Shown: positions 4,404 through 10,870, counted from the stretch's first letter. The stretch is 64,000 nucleotides of DNA from Escherichia coli (GCF_045037415.1 NZ_CP173438.1); one strand, 5' to 3'. Translations and numbers: made by a program. Notes: generated by a model from the letters alone, not told the origin.

Positions 4404-4668
4404 GCTGGTCGATCACTGGAAGAGGAAGACGCGGAGTTTACGCTGCTTGTCAGAAAATAAACAGACAGCGAAATCAAAAGCGCCACGAATAATCAAAATG
4501 CCATTTCACTGTTGCTGATTGGCTGCTGACACTGCTGAAATGAAATTGCTGATAACGGATTTTCCCATCAGCAATTAGGAAAAATGACAAAAAATTGTGC
4601 AGCACATCAAACTTTTGCTCATAACTTTACGGCTTTCCTTGCGCGCTGAAACAGAAGTATTATGCTTC

Positions 4669-4684
4669 CTTGAAACGTTTCAGC
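4669..4684. promoter_or_regulatory. Cra (FruR) operator O1 in fruB promoter
   Basis: cttgaaacgtttcagc, near-perfect palindrome matching Cra consensus GCTGAAACGTTTCA. Confidence 0.7.
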
Positions 4685-4735
4685 GCGATCTTGTCTTTAA
4701 CCCTAAGCCAGGTTGGCGCTTTTTTTCTCATAGAA

Positions 4736-4756
4736 GCTGAATCGTTTCAATTCAGC
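4736..4756. promoter_or_regulatory. Cra (FruR) operator O2 in fruB promoter/leader
   Basis: gctgaatcgtttcaattcagc, imperfect Cra palindrome ~15 bp upstream of fruB ATG. Confidence 0.65.
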
Positions 4757-4770
4757 AAGAGAGGAGAACT

Positions 4771-5901
4771 ATGTTCCAGTTATCTGTACAGGACATCCAT
4801 CCGGGCGAAAAGGCCGGAGACAAAGAAGAGGCGATTCGCCAGGTCGCTGCGGCGCTGGTGCAGGCCGGTAATGTAGCTGAAGGCTACGTCAATGGCATGC
4901 TGGCGCGCGAACAGCAAACCTCAACGTTCCTCGGCAATGGTATTGCTATTCCACACGGCACTACCGACACCCGCGATCAGGTGCTGAAAACCGGCGTTCA
5001 GGTATTTCAGTTCCCGGAAGGCGTCACCTGGGGGGACGGCCAGGTAGCGTACGTGGCGATCGGTATTGCTGCCAGCTCGGATGAACATCTGGGCCTGCTA
5101 CGCCAGCTGACCCACGTACTGAGCGATGATTCCGTTGCTGAACAACTGAAGTCAGCAACAACAGCAGAAGAACTTCGCGCATTGCTGATGGGCGAAAAGC
5201 AGAGTGAGCAGCTGAAGCTCGACAACGAAATGCTGACGCTGGATATCGTCGCCAGCGATCTGCTGACTCTTCAGGCGCTGAACGCTGCGCGTCTGAAAGA
5301 AGCGGGGGCAGTTGACGCCACTTTCGTCACCAAAGCCATCAATGAACAACCGCTGAACCTCGGACAGGGTATCTGGCTGAGCGATAGCGCCGAAGGCAAT
5401 CTGCGTAGCGCGATTGCGGTAAGCCGTGCGGCAAATGCTTTTGATGTGGACGGCGAAACGGCAGCCATGCTGGTGAGTGTGGCAATGAATGACGATCAGC
5501 CCATCGCGGTTCTTAAGCGTCTCGCTGATTTGTTGCTCGATAATAAAGCTGACCGCTTGCTGAAAGCGGATGCGGCAACGTTGCTGGCGCTGCTGACCAG
5601 CGATGATGCGCCGACCGACGACGTGTTAAGCGCGGAGTTTGTGGTGCGCAATGAACACGGCCTGCATGCTCGTCCAGGTACCATGCTGGTCAATACCATT
5701 AAACAATTTAACAGTGATATTACCGTGACAAACCTTGATGGCACCGGCAAACCGGCAAACGGACGTAGTCTGATGAAAGTTGTGGCACTTGGCGTTAAGA
5801 AAGGTCATCGCCTACGCTTTACCGCCCAGGGTGCAGATGCTGAACAGGCGCTGAAAGCCATTGGCGACGCTATCGCTGCTGGTCTTGGGGAGGGCGCATA
5901 A
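4771..5901 (+). CDS. fruB: Fructose PTS multiphosphoryl transfer protein (IIA-FPr)
   Basis: 376 aa; N-terminal IIA-like domain and C-terminal HPr-like domain (GLHARPG...); overlaps fruK start. Confidence 0.9.
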
Positions 5902-6839
5902 TGAGCAGACGTGTTGCTACGATCACCCTTAATCCGGCTTATGACCTTGTTGGTTTCTGCCCGGAAATTGAACGCGGCGAAGTGAACCTGGTGAAAACCA
6001 CCGGTCTGCATGCGGCGGGTAAAGGCATCAACGTGGCCAAAGTATTAAAAGACCTGGGAATTGATGTCACCGTTGGCGGCTTCCTGGGTAAAGACAATCA
6101 GGATGGTTTTCAGCAACTGTTCAGCGAGCTGGGCATTGCCAACCGTTTCCAGGTTGTACAGGGGCGCACCCGAATTAACGTTAAGCTGACGGAAAAAGAC
6201 GGCGAAGTGACCGACTTCAACTTCTCGGGTTTTGAAGTTACCCCCGCCGACTGGGAACGCTTTGTGACTGATTCTCTGAGCTGGCTCGGTCAGTTCGATA
6301 TGGTCTGTGTCAGCGGAAGCTTACCGTCAGGCGTCAGCCCGGAAGCGTTCACCGACTGGATGACTCGCCTGCGTAGTCAGTGTCCTTGCATTATCTTTGA
6401 TAGTAGCCGTGAAGCGTTAGTAGCAGGTTTGAAAGCGGCACCGTGGCTGGTGAAACCTAACCGCCGCGAGCTGGAAATCTGGGCAGGCCGTAAACTGCCT
6501 GAAATGAAAGATGTGATTGAAGCTGCACATGCGCTACGTGAACAAGGTATTGCGCATGTTGTTATTTCACTGGGTGCCGAAGGCGCGCTTTGGGTTAATG
6601 CCTCCGGCGAATGGATCGCCAAACCACCGTCAGTCGATGTCGTAAGCACCGTTGGCGCAGGGGATTCTATGGTTGGTGGCCTGATTTATGGCTTGCTGAT
6701 GCGTGAATCCAGTGAACACACACTGCGTCTGGCGACAGCTGTTGCAGCCCTGGCGGTAAGTCAAAGCAATGTGGGTATTACCGATCGTCCGCAGTTGGCC
6801 GCAATGATGGCGCGCGTCGACTTACAACCTTTTAACTGA
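5901..6839 (+). CDS. fruK: 1-phosphofructokinase
   Basis: 312 aa PfkB-family kinase; C-terminal GAGDSMVGG motif; ATGA overlap with fruB stop. Confidence 0.9.
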   Translation: MSRRVATITLNPAYDLVGFCPEIERGEVNLVKTTGLHAAGKGINVAKVLKDLGIDVTVGGFLGKDNQDGFQQLFSELGIANRFQVVQGRTRINVKLTEKDGEVTDFNFSGFEVTPADWERFVTDSLSWLGQFDMVCVSGSLPSGVSPEAFTDWMTRLRSQCPCIIFDSSREALVAGLKAAPWLVKPNRRELEIWAGRKLPEMKDVIEAAHALREQGIAHVVISLGAEGALWVNASGEWIAKPPSVDVVSTVGAGDSMVGGLIYGLLMRESSEHTLRLATAVAALAVSQSNVGITDRPQLAAMMARVDLQPFN

Positions 6840-6855
6840 CAGCAGGAGAGGCATA

Positions 6856-8547
6856 ATGAAAACGCTGCTGATTATTGACGCTAATCTCGGTCAGGCACGC
6901 GCCTATATGGCGAAGACCCTGCTGGGCGCGGCGGCGCGAAAAGCAAAACTGGAAATCATCGACAATCCGAACGACGCAGAAATGGCGATTGTTCTCGGTG
7001 ATTTCATCCCGAATGACAGCGCGCTGAACGGTAAAAATGTCTGGCTGGGCGATATTTCCCGGGCAGTTGCGCACCCTGAGCTGTTCCTGAGTGAAGCCAA
7101 AGGCCATGCGAAACCTTACACTGCGCCGGTCGCTGCGACAGCACCGGTTGCTGCTAGCGGTCCGAAACGCGTAGTTGCGGTGACTGCTTGCCCGACTGGT
7201 GTAGCACACACCTTTATGGCGGCTGAAGCCATTGAAACCGAAGCGAAAAAACGTGGCTGGTGGGTGAAAGTTGAAACCCGTGGTTCTGTTGGCGCGGGTA
7301 ATGCAATCACACCTGAAGAAGTCGCAGCAGCGGATCTGGTGATTGTGGCGGCAGATATCGAAGTGGATCTGGCGAAATTTGCTGGTAAACCGATGTATCG
7401 CACCTCTACCGGTCTGGCGCTGAAGAAAACTGCGCAGGAACTGGATAAAGCGGTTGCTGAAGCAACGCCGTATGAACCAGCGGGCAAAGCTCAAACAGCG
7501 ACCACTGAAGGTAAGAAAGAGAGTGCAGGCGCTTACCGTCACTTGCTGACGGGCGTCTCTTACATGCTGCCGATGGTTGTTGCAGGTGGTCTGTGTATCG
7601 CGCTTTCTTTTGCTTTTGGTATCGAAGCGTTTAAAGAGCCGGGTACGTTGGCAGCGGCGCTGATGCAGATTGGTGGTGGTTCAGCCTTTGCGCTGATGGT
7701 GCCGGTACTGGCAGGTTATATTGCCTTCTCCATTGCCGATCGTCCGGGTCTCACGCCGGGTCTGATTGGCGGTATGCTGGCGGTTAGCACCGGTTCTGGC
7801 TTCATTGGCGGTATTATTGCGGGCTTCCTGGCGGGTTACATTGCGAAGTTAATCAGTACGCAACTGAAACTGCCACAGAGTATGGAGGCACTGAAACCGA
7901 TCCTGATCATTCCGCTAATTTCCAGTCTGGTGGTCGGTCTGGCGATGATCTACCTAATCGGTAAACCGGTTGCTGGCATTCTCGATGGGTTGACTCACTG
8001 GCTGCAGACCATGGGGACTGCGAATGCGGTTCTGCTGGGGGCGATCCTCGGTGGCATGATGTGTACTGACATGGGCGGTCCGGTAAACAAAGCAGCGTAC
8101 GCATTCGGTGTGGGTCTGCTGAGTACTCAAACCTATGGCCCGATGGCGGCGATTATGGCGGCAGGTATGGTGCCACCGCTGGCAATGGGTCTGGCAACAA
8201 TGGTGGCGCGTCGTAAATTCGATAAAGCGCAGCAGGAAGGTGGCAAAGCCGCTCTGGTACTTGGTCTGTGCTTTATTTCGGAAGGTGCAATTCCGTTTGC
8301 TGCTCGTGATCCGATGCGTGTGCTACCGTGCTGTATCGTTGGTGGGGCGCTGACTGGCGCAATCTCAATGGCGATTGGTGCGAAACTGATGGCTCCGCAC
8401 GGTGGTCTGTTTGTTCTGCTGATCCCTGGCGCTATTACGCCGGTATTGGGTTACCTGGTAGCAATTATTGCCGGTACGCTGGTGGCGGGTTTGGCCTATG
8501 CCTTCCTCAAACGCCCGGAAACACAAATAGTAGAAAAAAACGCATAA
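6856..8547 (+). CDS. fruA: PTS fructose-specific IIB'BC component
   Basis: 563 aa; N-terminal IIB-like domains followed by polytopic IIC membrane domain. Confidence 0.9.
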   Translation: MKTLLIIDANLGQARAYMAKTLLGAAARKAKLEIIDNPNDAEMAIVLGDFIPNDSALNGKNVWLGDISRAVAHPELFLSEAKGHAKPYTAPVAATAPVAASGPKRVVAVTACPTGVAHTFMAAEAIETEAKKRGWWVKVETRGSVGAGNAITPEEVAAADLVIVAADIEVDLAKFAGKPMYRTSTGLALKKTAQELDKAVAEATPYEPAGKAQTATTEGKKESAGAYRHLLTGVSYMLPMVVAGGLCIALSFAFGIEAFKEPGTLAAALMQIGGGSAFALMVPVLAGYIAFSIADRPGLTPGLIGGMLAVSTGSGFIGGIIAGFLAGYIAKLISTQLKLPQSMEALKPILIIPLISSLVVGLAMIYLIGKPVAGILDGLTHWLQTMGTANAVLLGAILGGMMCTDMGGPVNKAAYAFGVGLLSTQTYGPMAAIMAAGMVPPLAMGLATMVARRKFDKAQQEGGKAALVLGLCFISEGAIPFAARDPMRVLPCCIVGGALTGAISMAIGAKLMAPHGGLFVLLIPGAITPVLGYLVAIIAGTLVAGLAYAFLKRPETQIVEKNA

Positions 8548-8604
8548 TTTCTCTTCATCATCGGGGATGAGACATCTCTGCCCCGATGATGACAAACGCA
8601 AAAT

Positions 8605-8704
8605 TGCCTGATGCGCTATGCTTATCAGACCTACATGAACCCTGCAATATATTGAATTTTTGCGCTTTTGTAGGTCGGATAAGGCGTTTACGCCACATCC
8701 AGCA
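8605..8704. repeat. REP pair (BIME) downstream of fruA
   Basis: Two inverted REP units: tgcctgatgcgctatgcttatcagacctac and gtaggtcggataaggcgtttacgccacatccagca. Confidence 0.7.
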
Positions 8705-8732
8705 TGAACAAAGCGCGCATTGTCAACAATCT

Positions 8733-8761
8733 GAGGGCAGAAACATCTCTGCCCTTTTTCT
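8733..8761 (+). terminator. Intrinsic terminator of the fruBKA operon
   Basis: gagggcag-aaacatct-ctgccc hairpin followed by TTTTTC. Confidence 0.6.
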
Positions 8762-9002
8762 TGCCTGCCATATTGTGTGTTACACATCACAACTTTCTCT
8801 TTTGTTGCTGCATAAATAGACAAATTTTGTGACCGCCTTCATATCTGGCCGATTTCGTTTTTTCTGATCGATTTACATTACGTTAAACATGCTTATTATG
8901 AACATGTGTTTAAATCTGAACACATGCTCTAATAGTCTTATTGACTGTAATGACTATTTTACCCAATTTCTTCGTTGGCAATTTATTGCCAGGGGGCGTG
9001 CT

Positions 9003-9944
9003 ATGCGCGAAAAGGACTACATAGTAATTATTGGCTCGGCGAATATTGATGTGGCTGGGTATTCACATCATCCATTGAATTATGCGGATTCGAATCCCGG
9101 AAAAATTAAATTTACCCCAGGTGGCGTGGGAAGGAATATCGCTCATAATCTGGCGTTACTGGGGAAAAATGCCTGGCTTTTAAGTGCAGTAGGTGGTGAT
9201 TTTTATGGGCAATCATTACTGGCGCAAACTAATCAATCCGGTGTTTATGTCGATAAATGCTTAATTGTTCCGGGTGAGAATACATCCAGCTATTTATCAC
9301 TGCTCGATAATACAGGAGAAATGCTTGTCGCGATAAATGATATGAGTATTAGTGACTGTATTTCTGCAGAATTTCTTGCCCAGCATCAGGAGTTTATTCG
9401 CGGTGCAAAGGTTATTGTCGCGGATTGCAACCTTAGTGAAGAGGCGCTGGTCTGGGTTCTGGAAAATAGCGGGGAAACGCCTGTATTTATTGATCCGGTA
9501 TCGGCATGGAAATGCGTCAAAATCCGCGATCATCTGAGCAAAATCCATACGTTAAAACCTAACCGTCTTGAAGCCGAAACGTTGAGCGGAATTGCACTTT
9601 CCGGACGTGAAGATGTCGCAAAGGTCGCCGCCTGGTTTCATCAACACGGCCTGAACCGCCTGGTGCTGAGCATGGGAGGGGATGGCGTTTACTACAGTGA
9701 TATCAACGGTGAAAGTGGGTGGTCGGCCCCTATTAAAACGAATGTCATCAATGTTACTGGGGCAGGCGACGCCATGATGGCGGGGCTGGCCTCCTGTTGG
9801 GTAGACGGTATGCCGTTTATCGATTCTGTTCGATTTGCGCAGGGATGTTCGTCAATGGCACTTGCCTGTGAATATACCAACAACCCTGAATTATCAATTG
9901 CCAATGTTACATCGTTAGTGGAGAACACAGAATGTCTGAATTAA
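9003..9944 (+). CDS. psuK: Pseudouridine kinase (PfkB family)
   Basis: Track ORF 8889..9944 trimmed to MREKDYIVIIGSANIDV (313 aa); PfkB motifs GGVGRNIA and TGAGDAMMAG. Confidence 0.8.
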   Translation: MREKDYIVIIGSANIDVAGYSHHPLNYADSNPGKIKFTPGGVGRNIAHNLALLGKNAWLLSAVGGDFYGQSLLAQTNQSGVYVDKCLIVPGENTSSYLSLLDNTGEMLVAINDMSISDCISAEFLAQHQEFIRGAKVIVADCNLSEEALVWVLENSGETPVFIDPVSAWKCVKIRDHLSKIHTLKPNRLEAETLSGIALSGREDVAKVAAWFHQHGLNRLVLSMGGDGVYYSDINGESGWSAPIKTNVINVTGAGDAMMAGLASCWVDGMPFIDSVRFAQGCSSMALACEYTNNPELSIANVTSLVENTECLN

Positions 9945-10870
9945 CTCTGTCCCCTGAATTATTACAAATATCCGCTGAAGTACAGGATGCTTTAAAAAAT
10001 AAAAAACCGGTTGTTGCGCTGGAATCGACCATAATTTCTCACGGAATGCCATTCCCACAAAATGCCCAAACCGCAATTGAAGTAGAAGAAACAATTCGTA
10101 AACAGGGCGCAGTACCAGCCACTATCGCCATTATTGGCGGTGTGATGAAAGTGGGCTTAAGTAAAGAAGAAATCGAATTGCTGGGCCGTGAAGGACATAA
10201 CGTGACGAAAGTTAGTCGTCGTGATTTACCTTTTGTCGTTGCTGCAGGGAAAAATGGCGCGACTACCGTTGCATCAACCATGATTATTGCAGCACTGGCT
10301 GGGATTAAAGTTTTTGCAACCGGAGGTATTGGTGGTGTGCATCGCGGAGCGGAACATACCTTCGATATTTCTGCCGATTTACAGGAACTGGCAAATACCA
10401 ATGTCACTGTTGTTTGTGCGGGGGCAAAATCTATTCTCGATTTAGGATTAACAACAGAATATTTAGAAACCTTCGGTGTACCGTTAATTGGTTATCAGAC
10501 AAAAGCGCTGCCTGCGTTTTTCTGCCGAACCAGCCCATTTGATGTCAGCATTCGTCTCGACAGTGCCCGCGAAATTGCTCGCGCGATGGCAGTGAAGTGG
10601 CAAACCGGTTTGAACGGCGGCCTGGTGGTAGCGAACCCGATCCCGGAACAGTTTGCGATGCCAGAAGAAACCATCAATGCAGCAATTGATCAAGCCGTTG
10701 CTGAAGCCGAAGAACAGGGTGTTATTGGGAAAGAGAGTACACCGTTCCTGCTGGCGCGTGTTGCGGAGCTAACCGGCGGTGATAGCCTGAAATCCAATAT
10801 TCAACTGGTCTTTAATAACGCCATTCTGGCGAGCGAAATTGCCAAAGAATATCAGCGTCTCGTGGGTTAA
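9932..10870 (+). CDS. psuG: Pseudouridine-5'-phosphate glycosidase
   Basis: 312 aa; overlaps psuK 3' end by 13 nt; conserved psuK-psuG pairing. Confidence 0.85.
   Translation: MSELTLSPELLQISAEVQDALKNKKPVVALESTIISHGMPFPQNAQTAIEVEETIRKQGAVPATIAIIGGVMKVGLSKEEIELLGREGHNVTKVSRRDLPFVVAAGKNGATTVASTMIIAALAGIKVFATGGIGGVHRGAEHTFDISADLQELANTNVTVVCAGAKSILDLGLTTEYLETFGVPLIGYQTKALPAFFCRTSPFDVSIRLDSAREIARAMAVKWQTGLNGGLVVANPIPEQFAMPEETINAAIDQAVAEAEEQGVIGKESTPFLLARVAELTGGDSLKSNIQLVFNNAILASEIAKEYQRLVG

What the first reader, a model, noticed from the sequence alone, without database searches (positions are those of the whole stretch)
8900..8926. Strong inverted repeat in the psuK promoter region
gaacatgtgtt and aacacatgctc form 11-bp arms (one mismatch) separated by 8 bp, about 80 bp upstream of the psuK start. 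This looks like a dimeric transcription-factor operator, and I know of no assigned regulator for the pseudouridine operon; the neighbouring CRP/FNR-family yeiL is one candidate.
Basis: inference. Interest (0 to 1): 0.3.

Follow-up and report, generated by a model that had tools for sequence, protein, structure and literature searches.

The report
Pseudouridine operon operator, likely YeiI-bound
The inverted repeat is real and is part of a deeply conserved two-box operator lying over the start of the pseudouridine-catabolism (psuKGT) promoter. Comparative evidence points to the uncharacterized kinase-like protein YeiI, not the neighbouring YeiL, as the repressor that binds it.

Summary
The repeat exists: arms 8900-8910 and 8919-8929, 10/11 complementary, 8-nt gap.

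It directly follows a conserved sigma-70-like promoter (TTTACA-16-TATTAT, 8872-8899), so it covers about -6 to +24.

Across 76 psu loci, from Enterobacteriaceae to Woeseiaceae and marine metagenomes, the conserved unit is not one long dyad. It is two tandem near-palindromic boxes, (C)AAAC-N4-GTTT(G), in E. coli RAACA-NN-TGYTY, with centres 18-19 bp apart. The middle bases vary freely. The long repeat in this strain is a by-product of two self-symmetric boxes.

The box pair occurs once per locus, always just after the -10 hexamer. It is present in every locus that has a YeiI-type protein (winged HTH_24 + PfkB pseudouridine-kinase domain) and absent from 5 psuK-psuG loci without one.

yeiL is missing from most loci that carry the boxes. 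It has its own, different palindrome in the yeiL-rihB spacer.

Best model: YeiI represses psuKGT by occupying the transcription start, and pseudouridine (or its 5'-phosphate) releases it. Binding, repression and the inducer are inferred, not shown. No paper in the held library assigns this regulator.

The parts
8872..8877 (+). -35 hexamer TTTACA of the predicted psuKGT promoter (TTTACT in most relatives)
   Evidence: Consensus scan, 10/12 match with a 16-nt spacer. TTTAC is invariant or nearly so in 34 Enterobacteriaceae and in 26 Yersinia-type loci.
8894..8899 (+). -10 hexamer TATTAT; predicted transcription start near 8905-8907
   Evidence: The TAnnAT pattern is conserved in alignment A3. 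No experimental start-site data could be obtained.
8900..8929 (.).
8901..8910 (.). Box 1, AACATGTGTT (AACA-NN-TGTT), overlapping the predicted transcription start
   Evidence: AACA and TGTT are invariant or nearly so across 34 species, while the central NN varies.
8919..8928 (.). Box 2, AACACATGCT (AACA-NN-TGYT), centre 18 bp from box 1
   Evidence: It is the only 0-mismatch box pair in the 64-kb window, and none occurred in 60 simulated windows.
8929..8934 (+). Conserved tail CTAATA after box 2 (CTCTAATAA in most Enterobacteriaceae); role unknown
   Evidence: Alignment A3.
8976..8991 (+). Leader hairpin TGGCAA-TTTA-TTGCCA, abutting the Shine-Dalgarno AGGGGG (8991-8996)
   Evidence: All 6 pairs show changes on both sides across 33 species; covariation score 0.42 against 0.25 +/- 0.03, reached by 0 of 500 shuffles. 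Predicted in the minimum-free-energy fold.
9003..9944 (+). psuK (pseudouridine kinase), first gene of the controlled operon
   Evidence: RefSeq annotation of the identical strain; Pfam PfkB.
9932..10870 (+). psuG (pseudouridine-5'-phosphate glycosidase)
10964..12214 (+). psuT (nucleoside transporter)
14318..15406 (-). yeiI: HTH_24 winged helix (residues 1-48) plus PfkB domain (58-348); proposed repressor of the operator
   Evidence: Pfam. HTH and pseudouridine-contact residues are conserved. Co-occurs with the boxes.
   Evidence: Pfam; phylogenetic profile; it has its own distinct palindrome.

Best explanation
The repeat is a repressor operator built from two tandem near-palindromic boxes: RAACA-NN-TGYTY in E. 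coli, (C)AAAC-N4-GTTT(G) family-wide, with centres 18-19 bp apart. The boxes begin 1-5 bp after the -10 hexamer of the psuKGT promoter and so cover the transcription start.

The protein that binds them is most likely YeiI, a winged-helix (HTH_24) domain fused to a pseudouridine-kinase-like PfkB domain. It probably binds as two dimers, one per box. Bound YeiI would block open-complex formation or promoter escape. Binding of pseudouridine (or pseudouridine 5'-phosphate) in the kinase-like pocket would release it and induce the kinase, glycosidase and transporter.

In Yersinia, Serratia, Hafnia, Photorhabdus, Woeseiaceae and marine Gammaproteobacteria, one fused HTH-kinase sits behind the same operator and presumably autoregulates. 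In Enterobacteriaceae that role is split between PsuK (no HTH) and YeiI (HTH kept, catalytic motif altered).

Shown: the repeat, its position relative to a conserved promoter-like site, its box structure, its conservation, and its co-occurrence with the HTH-PfkB protein.

Inferred: binding, repression, the inducer, the stoichiometry and the transcription start.
For: (1) Position. TTTACA-16-TATTAT ends at 8899 and box 1 starts at 8901. The same order, -35 then -10 then boxes, holds in 34 Enterobacteriaceae, 26 Yersinia-type loci and Woeseiaceae or metagenome loci. In the fused-gene loci box 2 ends 3-8 nt before the ATG. That leaves no room for a downstream promoter, so only repression fits.

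(2) Sequence-specific conservation. AACA and TGTT are invariant while the central dinucleotide is free. Between the two E. coli alleles the segment is 82% identical against 32-50% in the flanks.

(3) Specificity. A scan for two boxes (at most 1 mismatch each, spacing 17-19) over about 700 kb of loci plus the 64-kb window found one site per locus, always at this promoter. There was one overlapping extra hit. No 0-mismatch pair occurred in 60 simulated windows.

(4) Co-occurrence. Boxes are present in all 76 loci that have a YeiI-type HTH-PfkB gene in or beside the psu cluster. They are absent from 5 psuK-psuG loci without one: L066, L070, L071, L073, and L079, whose kinase is 65% identical to a fused one.

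(5) The regulator. The HTH segment (REKQIL..LRRxPLIxQxEIAxxLGISRSxVAGHIMxL..KGxIKGKGY) is nearly invariant from E. coli YeiI to Woeseiaceae. PsuK residues S30, N143 and K170, named as pseudouridine-binding or closure residues in PMC9061257, are invariant in YeiI.

(6) Physiology. PsuG/YeiN is among the most induced proteins of a B2 uropathogenic strain in urine, which contains pseudouridine (PMC9149909; also PMC2928814). A psuK mutant cannot use pseudouridine, so YeiI does not replace the kinase (PMC12506659).
Against: There is no binding, expression or start-site experiment. The promoter is only a consensus match, though a conserved one.

yeiI has no box pair in front of it in Enterobacteriaceae, so it is not autoregulated there the way the fused genes would be.

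AAC-N4-GTT half-sites are close together for a classical HTH dimer. Other parsings are possible, for example the inner dyad TGTTT-N6-RAACA. The stoichiometry is therefore open.

yeiL or another factor encoded elsewhere in those genomes could not be excluded, because whole genomes were not scanned. The loci are phylogenetically related, so the co-occurrence counts are not independent.

The GADD variant of the GAGD motif in YeiI is allowed by the PROSITE PfkB signature as I recall it. Loss of kinase activity is therefore not established.
Confidence: 0.6

Rival explanations
1. The boxes are bound by YeiL, the neighbouring Crp/Fnr-family regulator. It would act as repressor or activator of psuKGT.
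For: yeiL lies 3.3 kb away, just after psuT, and has cNMP-binding and Crp-type HTH domains. The AACA-NN-TGTT core resembles the box of the Crp/Fnr-family protein PrfA (TTAACANNTGTTAA; from memory, not tested).
Against: The boxes are conserved in about 60 loci with no yeiL in the cluster: most Citrobacter, Klebsiella oxytoca group, Enterobacter, Kosakonia, Leclercia, Buttiauxella, E. albertii, Yersinia, Serratia, Photorhabdus and Woeseiaceae. yeiL-rihB(-nupX) is an inserted block. The yeiL-rihB spacer has its own invariant palindrome, TATGAGATTTCTCATA (TGAGA-N2-TCTCA), which has no good copy at psuK. The boxes do not fit TGTGA-N6-TCACA or TTGAT-N4-ATCAA.
Confidence: 0.08
2. Another transcription factor encoded outside the locus binds the boxes, and the association with YeiI-type proteins is only shared ancestry of the gene cluster.
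For: Whole genomes were not scanned and no binding data exist. yeiI itself carries no box pair.
Against: The association holds across very distant lineages and different gene neighbourhoods: Enterobacterales, Woeseiaceae and marine metagenomes. It breaks exactly where the HTH is missing, as in L079. I recalled no E. coli factor consensus that fits.
Confidence: 0.15
3. The repeat acts as nucleic-acid structure, either an RNA stem-loop at the 5' end of the psuK message (stability or translation) or a DNA cruciform, rather than as a protein site.
For: It folds at -12.3 kcal/mol, z = -5.7. 88% of cells in the 34-species alignment can pair in the long helix, and a few sequences show changes on both sides. 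From the predicted start, a 7-bp 5'-terminal hairpin still forms.
Against: Covariation is weak: score 0.123 against 0.108 +/- 0.009, reached by 27 of 500 shuffles. An A.C mismatch is conserved in 22 of 34 sequences, and the helix is broken in K-12-type and Yersinia-type sequences. The pairing follows automatically from two self-symmetric boxes. The conserved positions keep their identity rather than their complementarity. By contrast, the true leader hairpin 70 nt downstream covaries strongly in the same species set. The predicted start lies inside the left arm. There is no Rfam match and no U-tract.
Confidence: 0.05
4. The repeat is a chance palindrome or a REP/BIME-type repeat with no function.
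For: REP elements lie 180-300 bp upstream (8600-8720; one search gives sub-threshold naRNA4/ES036 matches). Inverted repeats of this size occur about 16 times in the window.
Against: It is unique in the window, unlike REP. It is conserved in 76 loci over great evolutionary distance, at a fixed position relative to the promoter.
Confidence: 0.01

Closest known systems
ROK-family repressors NagC and Mlc of E. coli (established knowledge, from memory)
   Same: One-component regulators that join an N-terminal HTH to a sugar-kinase-fold sensor related to the pathway's own kinase. Their operators overlap catabolic promoters, and a pathway metabolite relieves repression.
   Different: The ROK sensor has the ASKHA (actin-like) fold, whereas YeiI has the ribokinase-like PfkB fold (Pfam). 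The operator sequences are unrelated. YeiI matched no ROK model.
Bifunctional enzyme-repressors BirA and NadR (from memory)
   Same: An enzyme of the pathway carries an HTH and represses its own pathway genes. The fused HTH-PsuK proteins of Yersinia, Serratia and Woeseiaceae keep the GAGD kinase motif and sit behind the operator.
   Different: The enzyme folds and ligands differ. In Enterobacteriaceae the two roles appear to be split between paralogues, PsuK and YeiI. No member of this family has been tested.
Lrp/AsnC-type and archaeal FL11 regulators, which carry the related HTH_24/HTH_AsnC winged helix (from memory)
   Same: The same HTH clan (Pfam HTH_24 E = 1e-11; weak HTH_AsnC and MarR matches). 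They bind short A/T-rich palindromes of the 5-N3-5 type, often in tandem.
   Different: Their effector domain is a RAM domain, not a kinase. The consensus differs.
PrfA box of Listeria (Crp/Fnr family), TTAACANNTGTTAA (from memory)
   Same: It shares the AACA-NN-TGTT core.
   Different: PrfA boxes are single activator sites near -41.5. Here there are two boxes directly downstream of the -10 hexamer, and they do not co-occur with the Crp/Fnr gene yeiL.
E. coli pseudouridine kinase PsuK (PDB 7vkp and related entries)
   Same: It is the closest solved relative of the YeiI sensor domain (E = 2e-69). Substrate residues S30, N143 and K170 are shared (roles from PMC9061257).
   Different: PsuK has no HTH. 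No solved structure includes the HTH-PfkB fusion.

Membership tests
Repressor-type operator overlapping a core promoter | Lies between about -10 and +30 of a promoter | tested here: met
   The boxes at 8901-8928 directly follow TTTACA-16-TATTAT (8872-8899). The arrangement is conserved in all groups. The promoter is predicted, not mapped.
Repressor-type operator overlapping a core promoter | Dyad symmetry, with conservation of base identity in orthologous promoters | tested here: met
   AACA/TGTT invariant, centre free.
Repressor-type operator overlapping a core promoter | Specific protein binding, and derepression when the site is mutated | not testable with these tools
   Needs EMSA or footprinting and reporter assays.
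Operator of YeiI-type HTH_24-PfkB regulators (proposed, uncharacterized family) | Co-occurrence of the box pair with an HTH_24-PfkB gene in the psu cluster | tested here: met
   Present in 76 of 76 loci with the gene and 0 of 5 without. The loci are not phylogenetically independent.
Operator of YeiI-type HTH_24-PfkB regulators (proposed, uncharacterized family) | A conserved DNA-recognition segment that matches a conserved operator | tested here: met
   The HTH columns are at least 90% conserved from E. coli to Woeseiaceae.
Operator of YeiI-type HTH_24-PfkB regulators (proposed, uncharacterized family) | A sensor domain able to bind pseudouridine | tested here: inconclusive
   S30, N143 and K170 are invariant (their roles come from PMC9061257). 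Ligand binding was not measured. GAGD is changed to GADD/GADE in Enterobacteriaceae YeiI.
Crp/Fnr-family (YeiL) binding site | 5-bp half-sites of the TGTGA-N6-TCACA or TTGAT-N4-ATCAA type | tested here: not met
   The sequence reads AACA-NN-TGTT twice. It is not in the genome-wide CRP footprint list, which mentions yeiL but not psuK.
Crp/Fnr-family (YeiL) binding site | Co-occurrence with the regulator gene | tested here: not met
   yeiL is present in only 9 of the box-bearing loci. A different palindrome is conserved next to yeiL.
Structured RNA element or Rfam family | Match to a curated covariance model | tested here: not met
   No match at 8860-9002 even at E <= 1.
Structured RNA element or Rfam family | Compensatory base changes that support the helix | tested here: inconclusive
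   Weak covariation: 27 of 500 shuffles reach the score, and there is a conserved A.C mismatch.
Intrinsic terminator | G+C-rich stem followed by a U-tract | tested here: not met
   The scan finds only the fruA terminator at 8733-8756. The repeat is A+T-rich and is followed by TAATAG.
REP/BIME repeat | Multiple dispersed copies with the REP consensus | tested here: not met
   A single copy in the window with up to 3 mismatches allowed. The REP-like matches lie at 8610-8709.

The most novel reading that the evidence does not exclude
HTH_24-PfkB proteins, currently annotated only as 'pseudouridine kinase' or 'PfkB carbohydrate kinase' (more than 3000 database relatives), may be an uncharacterized and widespread family of kinase-derived transcription factors. 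On this reading they control pseudouridine catabolism through a two-box operator, (C)AAAC-N4-GTTT(G) x2. The ancestral form would be a bifunctional, autoregulating kinase-repressor. In Enterobacteriaceae it would have split into the enzyme PsuK and the sensor-repressor YeiI. That gives the E. coli orphan gene yeiI a function, a target and a probable ligand. It would also explain the urine-induced expression of psuKGT in uropathogenic strains.
Probability: 0.5. Interest if true: 0.6.

Novelty: new variant of a known kind. Interest (0 to 1): 0.5.

Why it matters
psuKGT has no assigned regulator, and YeiI is repeatedly listed as function unknown (PMC9061257, PMC12506659, PMC6055005). A defined 30-bp operator with a specific candidate repressor and ligand turns both gaps into one simple experiment.

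Pseudouridine is abundant in urine, and PsuG is among the proteins most induced in uropathogenic E. coli growing there (PMC9149909). The switch is therefore relevant to growth in the urinary tract.

The system would be the first regulator family built on a PfkB kinase sensor. It would also be a clean case of a bifunctional enzyme-repressor splitting into an enzyme and a regulator.

It could serve as a pseudouridine-responsive biosensor, which would help strains engineered for pseudouridine production for mRNA vaccines. It also shows that many 'pseudouridine kinase' annotations may describe regulators.

Tried and rejected
- **Long hairpin or single dyad.** Tested on 34 species. Covariation was weak, and the pairing is explained by two self-symmetric boxes.
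- **Rfam.** Searched at E <= 1. Only REP-derived sub-threshold matches upstream.
- **Other copies in the window.** Looked for the repeat, single boxes and the general box AAACNNNNGTTT. None near yeiI, yeiL or rihB, so no local regulon beyond psuKGT.
- **YeiL as regulator.** Rejected on phylogenetic profile and because it has its own distinct palindrome.
- **Activator geometry.** Considered the boxes at about -43/-61 of a downstream TATTTT-like hexamer at 8955-8960. Rejected because the distance is not conserved (27 nt in the window against 21 nt in K-12). In fused-gene loci the boxes also abut the ATG.
- **CRP or CytR site.** TGTGT-N10-ACACA has the wrong spacing, and psuK is absent from a genome-wide CRP footprint list.
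- **Literature.** Searched for a known regulator, a YeiI function or HTH-fused pseudouridine kinases. Nothing found.
- **Papers not held.** Preumont 2008, Breitman 1970 and Thomason 2015 (start sites) could not be read. No experimental transcription start could be checked.
- **Solved structures.** None contains the HTH-PfkB fusion.
- **Not attempted.** No structure prediction was run, because only monomers can be modelled and the open question is the dimer or tetramer geometry.

Full report
**Context**

The window is E. coli. The spacer is 100% identical to strain SK1144 and 99.3% to Nissle 1917. The gene order is:
- fruBKA (4771-8547, +)
- REP elements (about 8600-8720)
- the fruA terminator (8733-8756)
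- psuK (9003-9944), psuG (9932-10870) and psuT (10964-12214), all on +
- yeiL (12281-12979, -), rihB (13109-14050, +), yeiI (14318-15406, -) and nfo (15410-16267, -)

**The observation**

The repeat is present. Its arms are 8900-8910 (GAACATGTGTT) and 8919-8929 (AACACATGCTC), 10/11 complementary with an 8-nt gap. The repeat centre is 88 bp upstream of the psuK ATG.

The pattern is unique in the window and absent from shuffles. It folds well: -12.3 kcal/mol, z = -5.7. Inverted repeats of this size are not rare here, though. There are about 16 places, against 6.5 +/- 3.9 register hits expected, and most of the others are terminators. Symmetry alone is therefore weak evidence.

**Position**

A sigma-70-like site, TTTACA-16-TATTAT, ends at 8899, one base before the repeat. 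A start about 7 nt after the hexamer would fall at 8905-8907, inside the left arm. The repeat would then span roughly -6 to +24. No experimental start site could be consulted.

**Conservation inside E. coli**

psuK and its upstream spacer exist as two deeply diverged alleles.
- Only 1199 of 5426 complete genomes carry the window's type at 95% identity or better. These are phylogroup B2-like strains such as Nissle, 83972 and ATCC 25922.
- The rest, including K-12 and O157, are 77-79% identical.

The two spacers were aligned by segment:

| Segment | Identity |
|---|---|
| -35 to box 2 | 82% |
| Leader hairpin plus Shine-Dalgarno | 82% |
| Intervening and upstream segments | 32-50% |

In K-12 the sequence is GAGCACATGTTTAAATATGAACACATGTTT. 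The long inverted repeat drops to 7/11 and becomes a direct repeat of CACATGTTTAA instead.

**Conservation across species, and the real unit**

PsuK relatives were collected from one genome per species. Upstream regions from 34 Enterobacteriaceae were aligned.

The invariant or nearly invariant positions are TTTAC(T) at -35, TAnnAT at -10, and two copies of AACA-NN-TG(T/C)T whose centres are 18 bp apart. These are followed by CTCTAATAA.

The two central bases of each box vary freely. The combinations seen are CA/TG (17), CG/TG (3), CA/CA (2), TG/TG (2), TG/TA (2), TA/TG (2) and several singletons. TG/CA occurs only in the window.

Each box is itself a near-palindrome, so any two boxes are automatically inverted repeats of each other. 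Treated as one long helix, the alignment shows 88% pairable cells but little covariation: 0.123 against 0.108 +/- 0.009, reached by 27 of 500 shuffles. It also shows an A.C mismatch conserved in 22 of 34 sequences.

A different element 70 nt downstream gives a useful contrast. The leader hairpin TGGCAA-TTTA-TTGCCA (8976-8991) abuts the ribosome-binding site. In the same species set, all 6 of its pairs change on both sides, and 0 of 500 shuffles reach its score.

So a true RNA-type signal is detectable at this depth, and the boxes do not show it. They keep base identity, which is the signature of protein recognition. Rfam has no match for either element.

**Which protein**

A scan for two boxes (at most 1 mismatch each, spacing 17-19) covered all fetched loci (about 700 kb) and the 64-kb window. 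It found exactly one site per locus, always at this promoter, plus one overlapping extra hit. No 0-mismatch pair appeared in 60 simulated windows.

Gene content was mapped by tblastn.
- In most Enterobacteriaceae the cluster is fruA | psuK psuG psuT | <- yeiI, with no yeiL. This holds for Citrobacter, Buttiauxella, Enterobacter, Kosakonia, the Klebsiella oxytoca group, Leclercia, Kluyvera, Pseudocitrobacter and E. albertii.
- yeiL-rihB(-nupX) is an insertion between psuT and yeiI. It is seen only in E. coli and close Escherichia, one C. amalonaticus, Phytobacter diazotrophicus and Entomohabitans.
- In Yersinia, Serratia, Hafnia and Photorhabdus (26 loci) the kinase itself carries the N-terminal HTH. 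The boxes (CAAACnnATGTTTAAAAACAAACAAGTGTCC) follow a TTTACT-N(15-17)-TAAAA-type promoter and end a few bases before the ATG.
- The same holds in three Woeseiaceae or Proteobacteria genomes.
- It also holds in five metagenomic Gammaproteobacteria loci retrieved through the protein alone. There the boxes read CAAAC-N4-GTTTG twice, 19 bp apart.
- Five psuK-psuG loci without any HTH-PfkB gene have no boxes. They are one alphaproteobacterium, three Lachnospiraceae, and L079, whose kinase is 65% identical to a fused one.

Pfam assigns YeiI an HTH_24 winged helix (residues 1-48, E = 1e-11) plus PfkB. The HTH segment is nearly invariant from E. coli to Woeseiaceae.

The PsuK residues S30, N143 and K170 are invariant in all YeiI-type proteins. 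PMC9061257 ties these residues to pseudouridine affinity and loop closure. The fused proteins keep the GAGD catalytic motif, while Enterobacteriaceae YeiI has GADD or GADE. As I recall, the PROSITE signature tolerates D at that position, so loss of activity is only a suggestion. A psuK mutant cannot use pseudouridine, so YeiI does not replace the kinase (PMC12506659).

**YeiL**

YeiL has cNMP-binding and Crp-type HTH domains. The yeiL-rihB spacer contains an invariant palindrome, TATGAGATTTCTCATA (12993-13008), across eight loci whose flanks diverge. No good copy lies at psuK. YeiL more plausibly serves that inserted nucleosidase and transporter module.

**Mechanism proposed**

YeiI occupies the two boxes over the transcription start and blocks initiation. 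I infer two dimers, one per palindromic box, because PfkB kinases dimerize. Pseudouridine or its phosphate binds the kinase-like pocket and releases the DNA.

Induction is consistent with PsuG being among the most up-regulated proteins of UTI89 in urine (PMC9149909). It is also consistent with raised yeiC/yeiN expression in a urine-adapted 83972 re-isolate (PMC2928814).

An activator geometry was considered, with the boxes at about -43/-61 of a weak downstream hexamer. It was rejected because the spacing is not conserved, and because the fused-gene loci leave no room for a downstream promoter.

**What is shown and what is inferred**

Shown:
- the repeat itself
- its placement against a conserved promoter-like site
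- the two-box architecture
- identity-type conservation
- uniqueness within each locus
- co-occurrence with HTH-PfkB genes, and lack of co-occurrence with yeiL

Inferred:
- the transcription start
- binding by YeiI
- repression
- the inducer
- the stoichiometry
- the duplication-and-split history

That history rests on three observations. PsuK is 58% identical to the fused kinases, YeiI about 50%, and PsuK and YeiI 39-40% to each other.

**Comparison with known systems**

It works like the enzyme-derived one-component repressors: NagC/Mlc of the ROK family, and BirA and NadR. It is not a member of any of them. The sensor is a PfkB fold, and no solved structure contains the fusion.

The AACA-NN-TGTT core recalls the PrfA box of a Crp/Fnr protein (from memory). 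Position, duplication and phylogenetic profile all argue against a Crp/Fnr site.

Searches of the held literature found no regulator for psuKGT, no function for YeiI and no description of HTH-fused pseudouridine kinases. RegulonDB, EcoCyc and RegPrecise could not be queried directly.

**Verdict**

'Operator' is supported, but it is redefined as two tandem boxes. 'YeiL' is not supported, and YeiI is the better candidate.

This is a new variant of a familiar kind of switch. It is of moderate interest because it gives an orphan operon a regulator and an orphan E. coli gene a function, both testable with a gel shift and one deletion.

Noticed in passing
window 8976-8991: Leader hairpin TGGCAA-TTTA-TTGCCA directly abutting the psuK Shine-Dalgarno sequence. 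All 6 pairs show compensatory changes across 33 Enterobacteriaceae, and 0 of 500 shuffles reach the covariation score. It may control translation or stability, or be a second palindromic site.
   Followed up: partly
window 12993-13008: A perfect palindrome, TATGAGATTTCTCATA, in the yeiL-rihB divergent spacer. It is invariant in 8 loci from Escherichia to Phytobacter and Entomohabitans while its flanks diverge. It is a likely YeiL (Crp-type) site controlling rihB and/or yeiL.
   Followed up: partly
window about 8760-9944: psuK and its upstream spacer form a deep allelic dimorphism in E. coli. 1199 of 5426 genomes carry this B2-type allele and the rest are only 77-79% identical. PsuK protein is 88% identical to K-12 but 96% to E. 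albertii, while flanking FruA, PsuG and PsuT are 97-100% identical. This suggests an old recombination import or balanced alleles.
   Followed up: partly
window 14051-14317: nupX (the psuT paralogue that follows rihB in related Escherichia loci L006, L008 and L016) is absent here. rihB is followed after 268 bp by the 3' end of yeiI.
   Followed up: no
window 8889-9002: The psuK reading frame stays open for 38 codons upstream of the annotated ATG, and three in-frame ATGs lie inside the -10/operator region. ORF callers may over-extend psuK (ORF listing gives 351 aa).
   Followed up: no
window 8600-8720: REP/BIME elements lie between fruA and its terminator-proximal region. They give sub-threshold Rfam matches to the REP-derived sRNAs naRNA4 and ES036. 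This segment is replaced by unrelated sequence in K-12.
   Followed up: no
L075-L078, L080 (about 4530-5560 in each): In marine and soil Gammaproteobacteria, the HTH-PfkB gene and psuG are followed by a 2OG-Fe(II) oxygenase gene (DIOX_N + 2OG-FeII_Oxy), apparently in the same operon. It may be an additional, undescribed step linked to pseudouridine or uracil catabolism.
   Followed up: no
L070 3290-3385; L071 4905-4995; L073 40-135: Lachnospiraceae psuK genes (no HTH) share a conserved upstream block, CAGTATAATAnTTTACTATAGTGGCGAAATATGTATTTATAAGGA. This points to a different, uncharacterized control element in Firmicutes.
   Followed up: no
A4 columns 11-24 (about 40-55 nt upstream of psuK ATG in Citrobacter, Enterobacter, Kosakonia and Kluyvera): A TTAACGAACTCATT block in the psuK leader is conserved in many genera but absent from both E. 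coli alleles. Its function is unknown.
   Followed up: no
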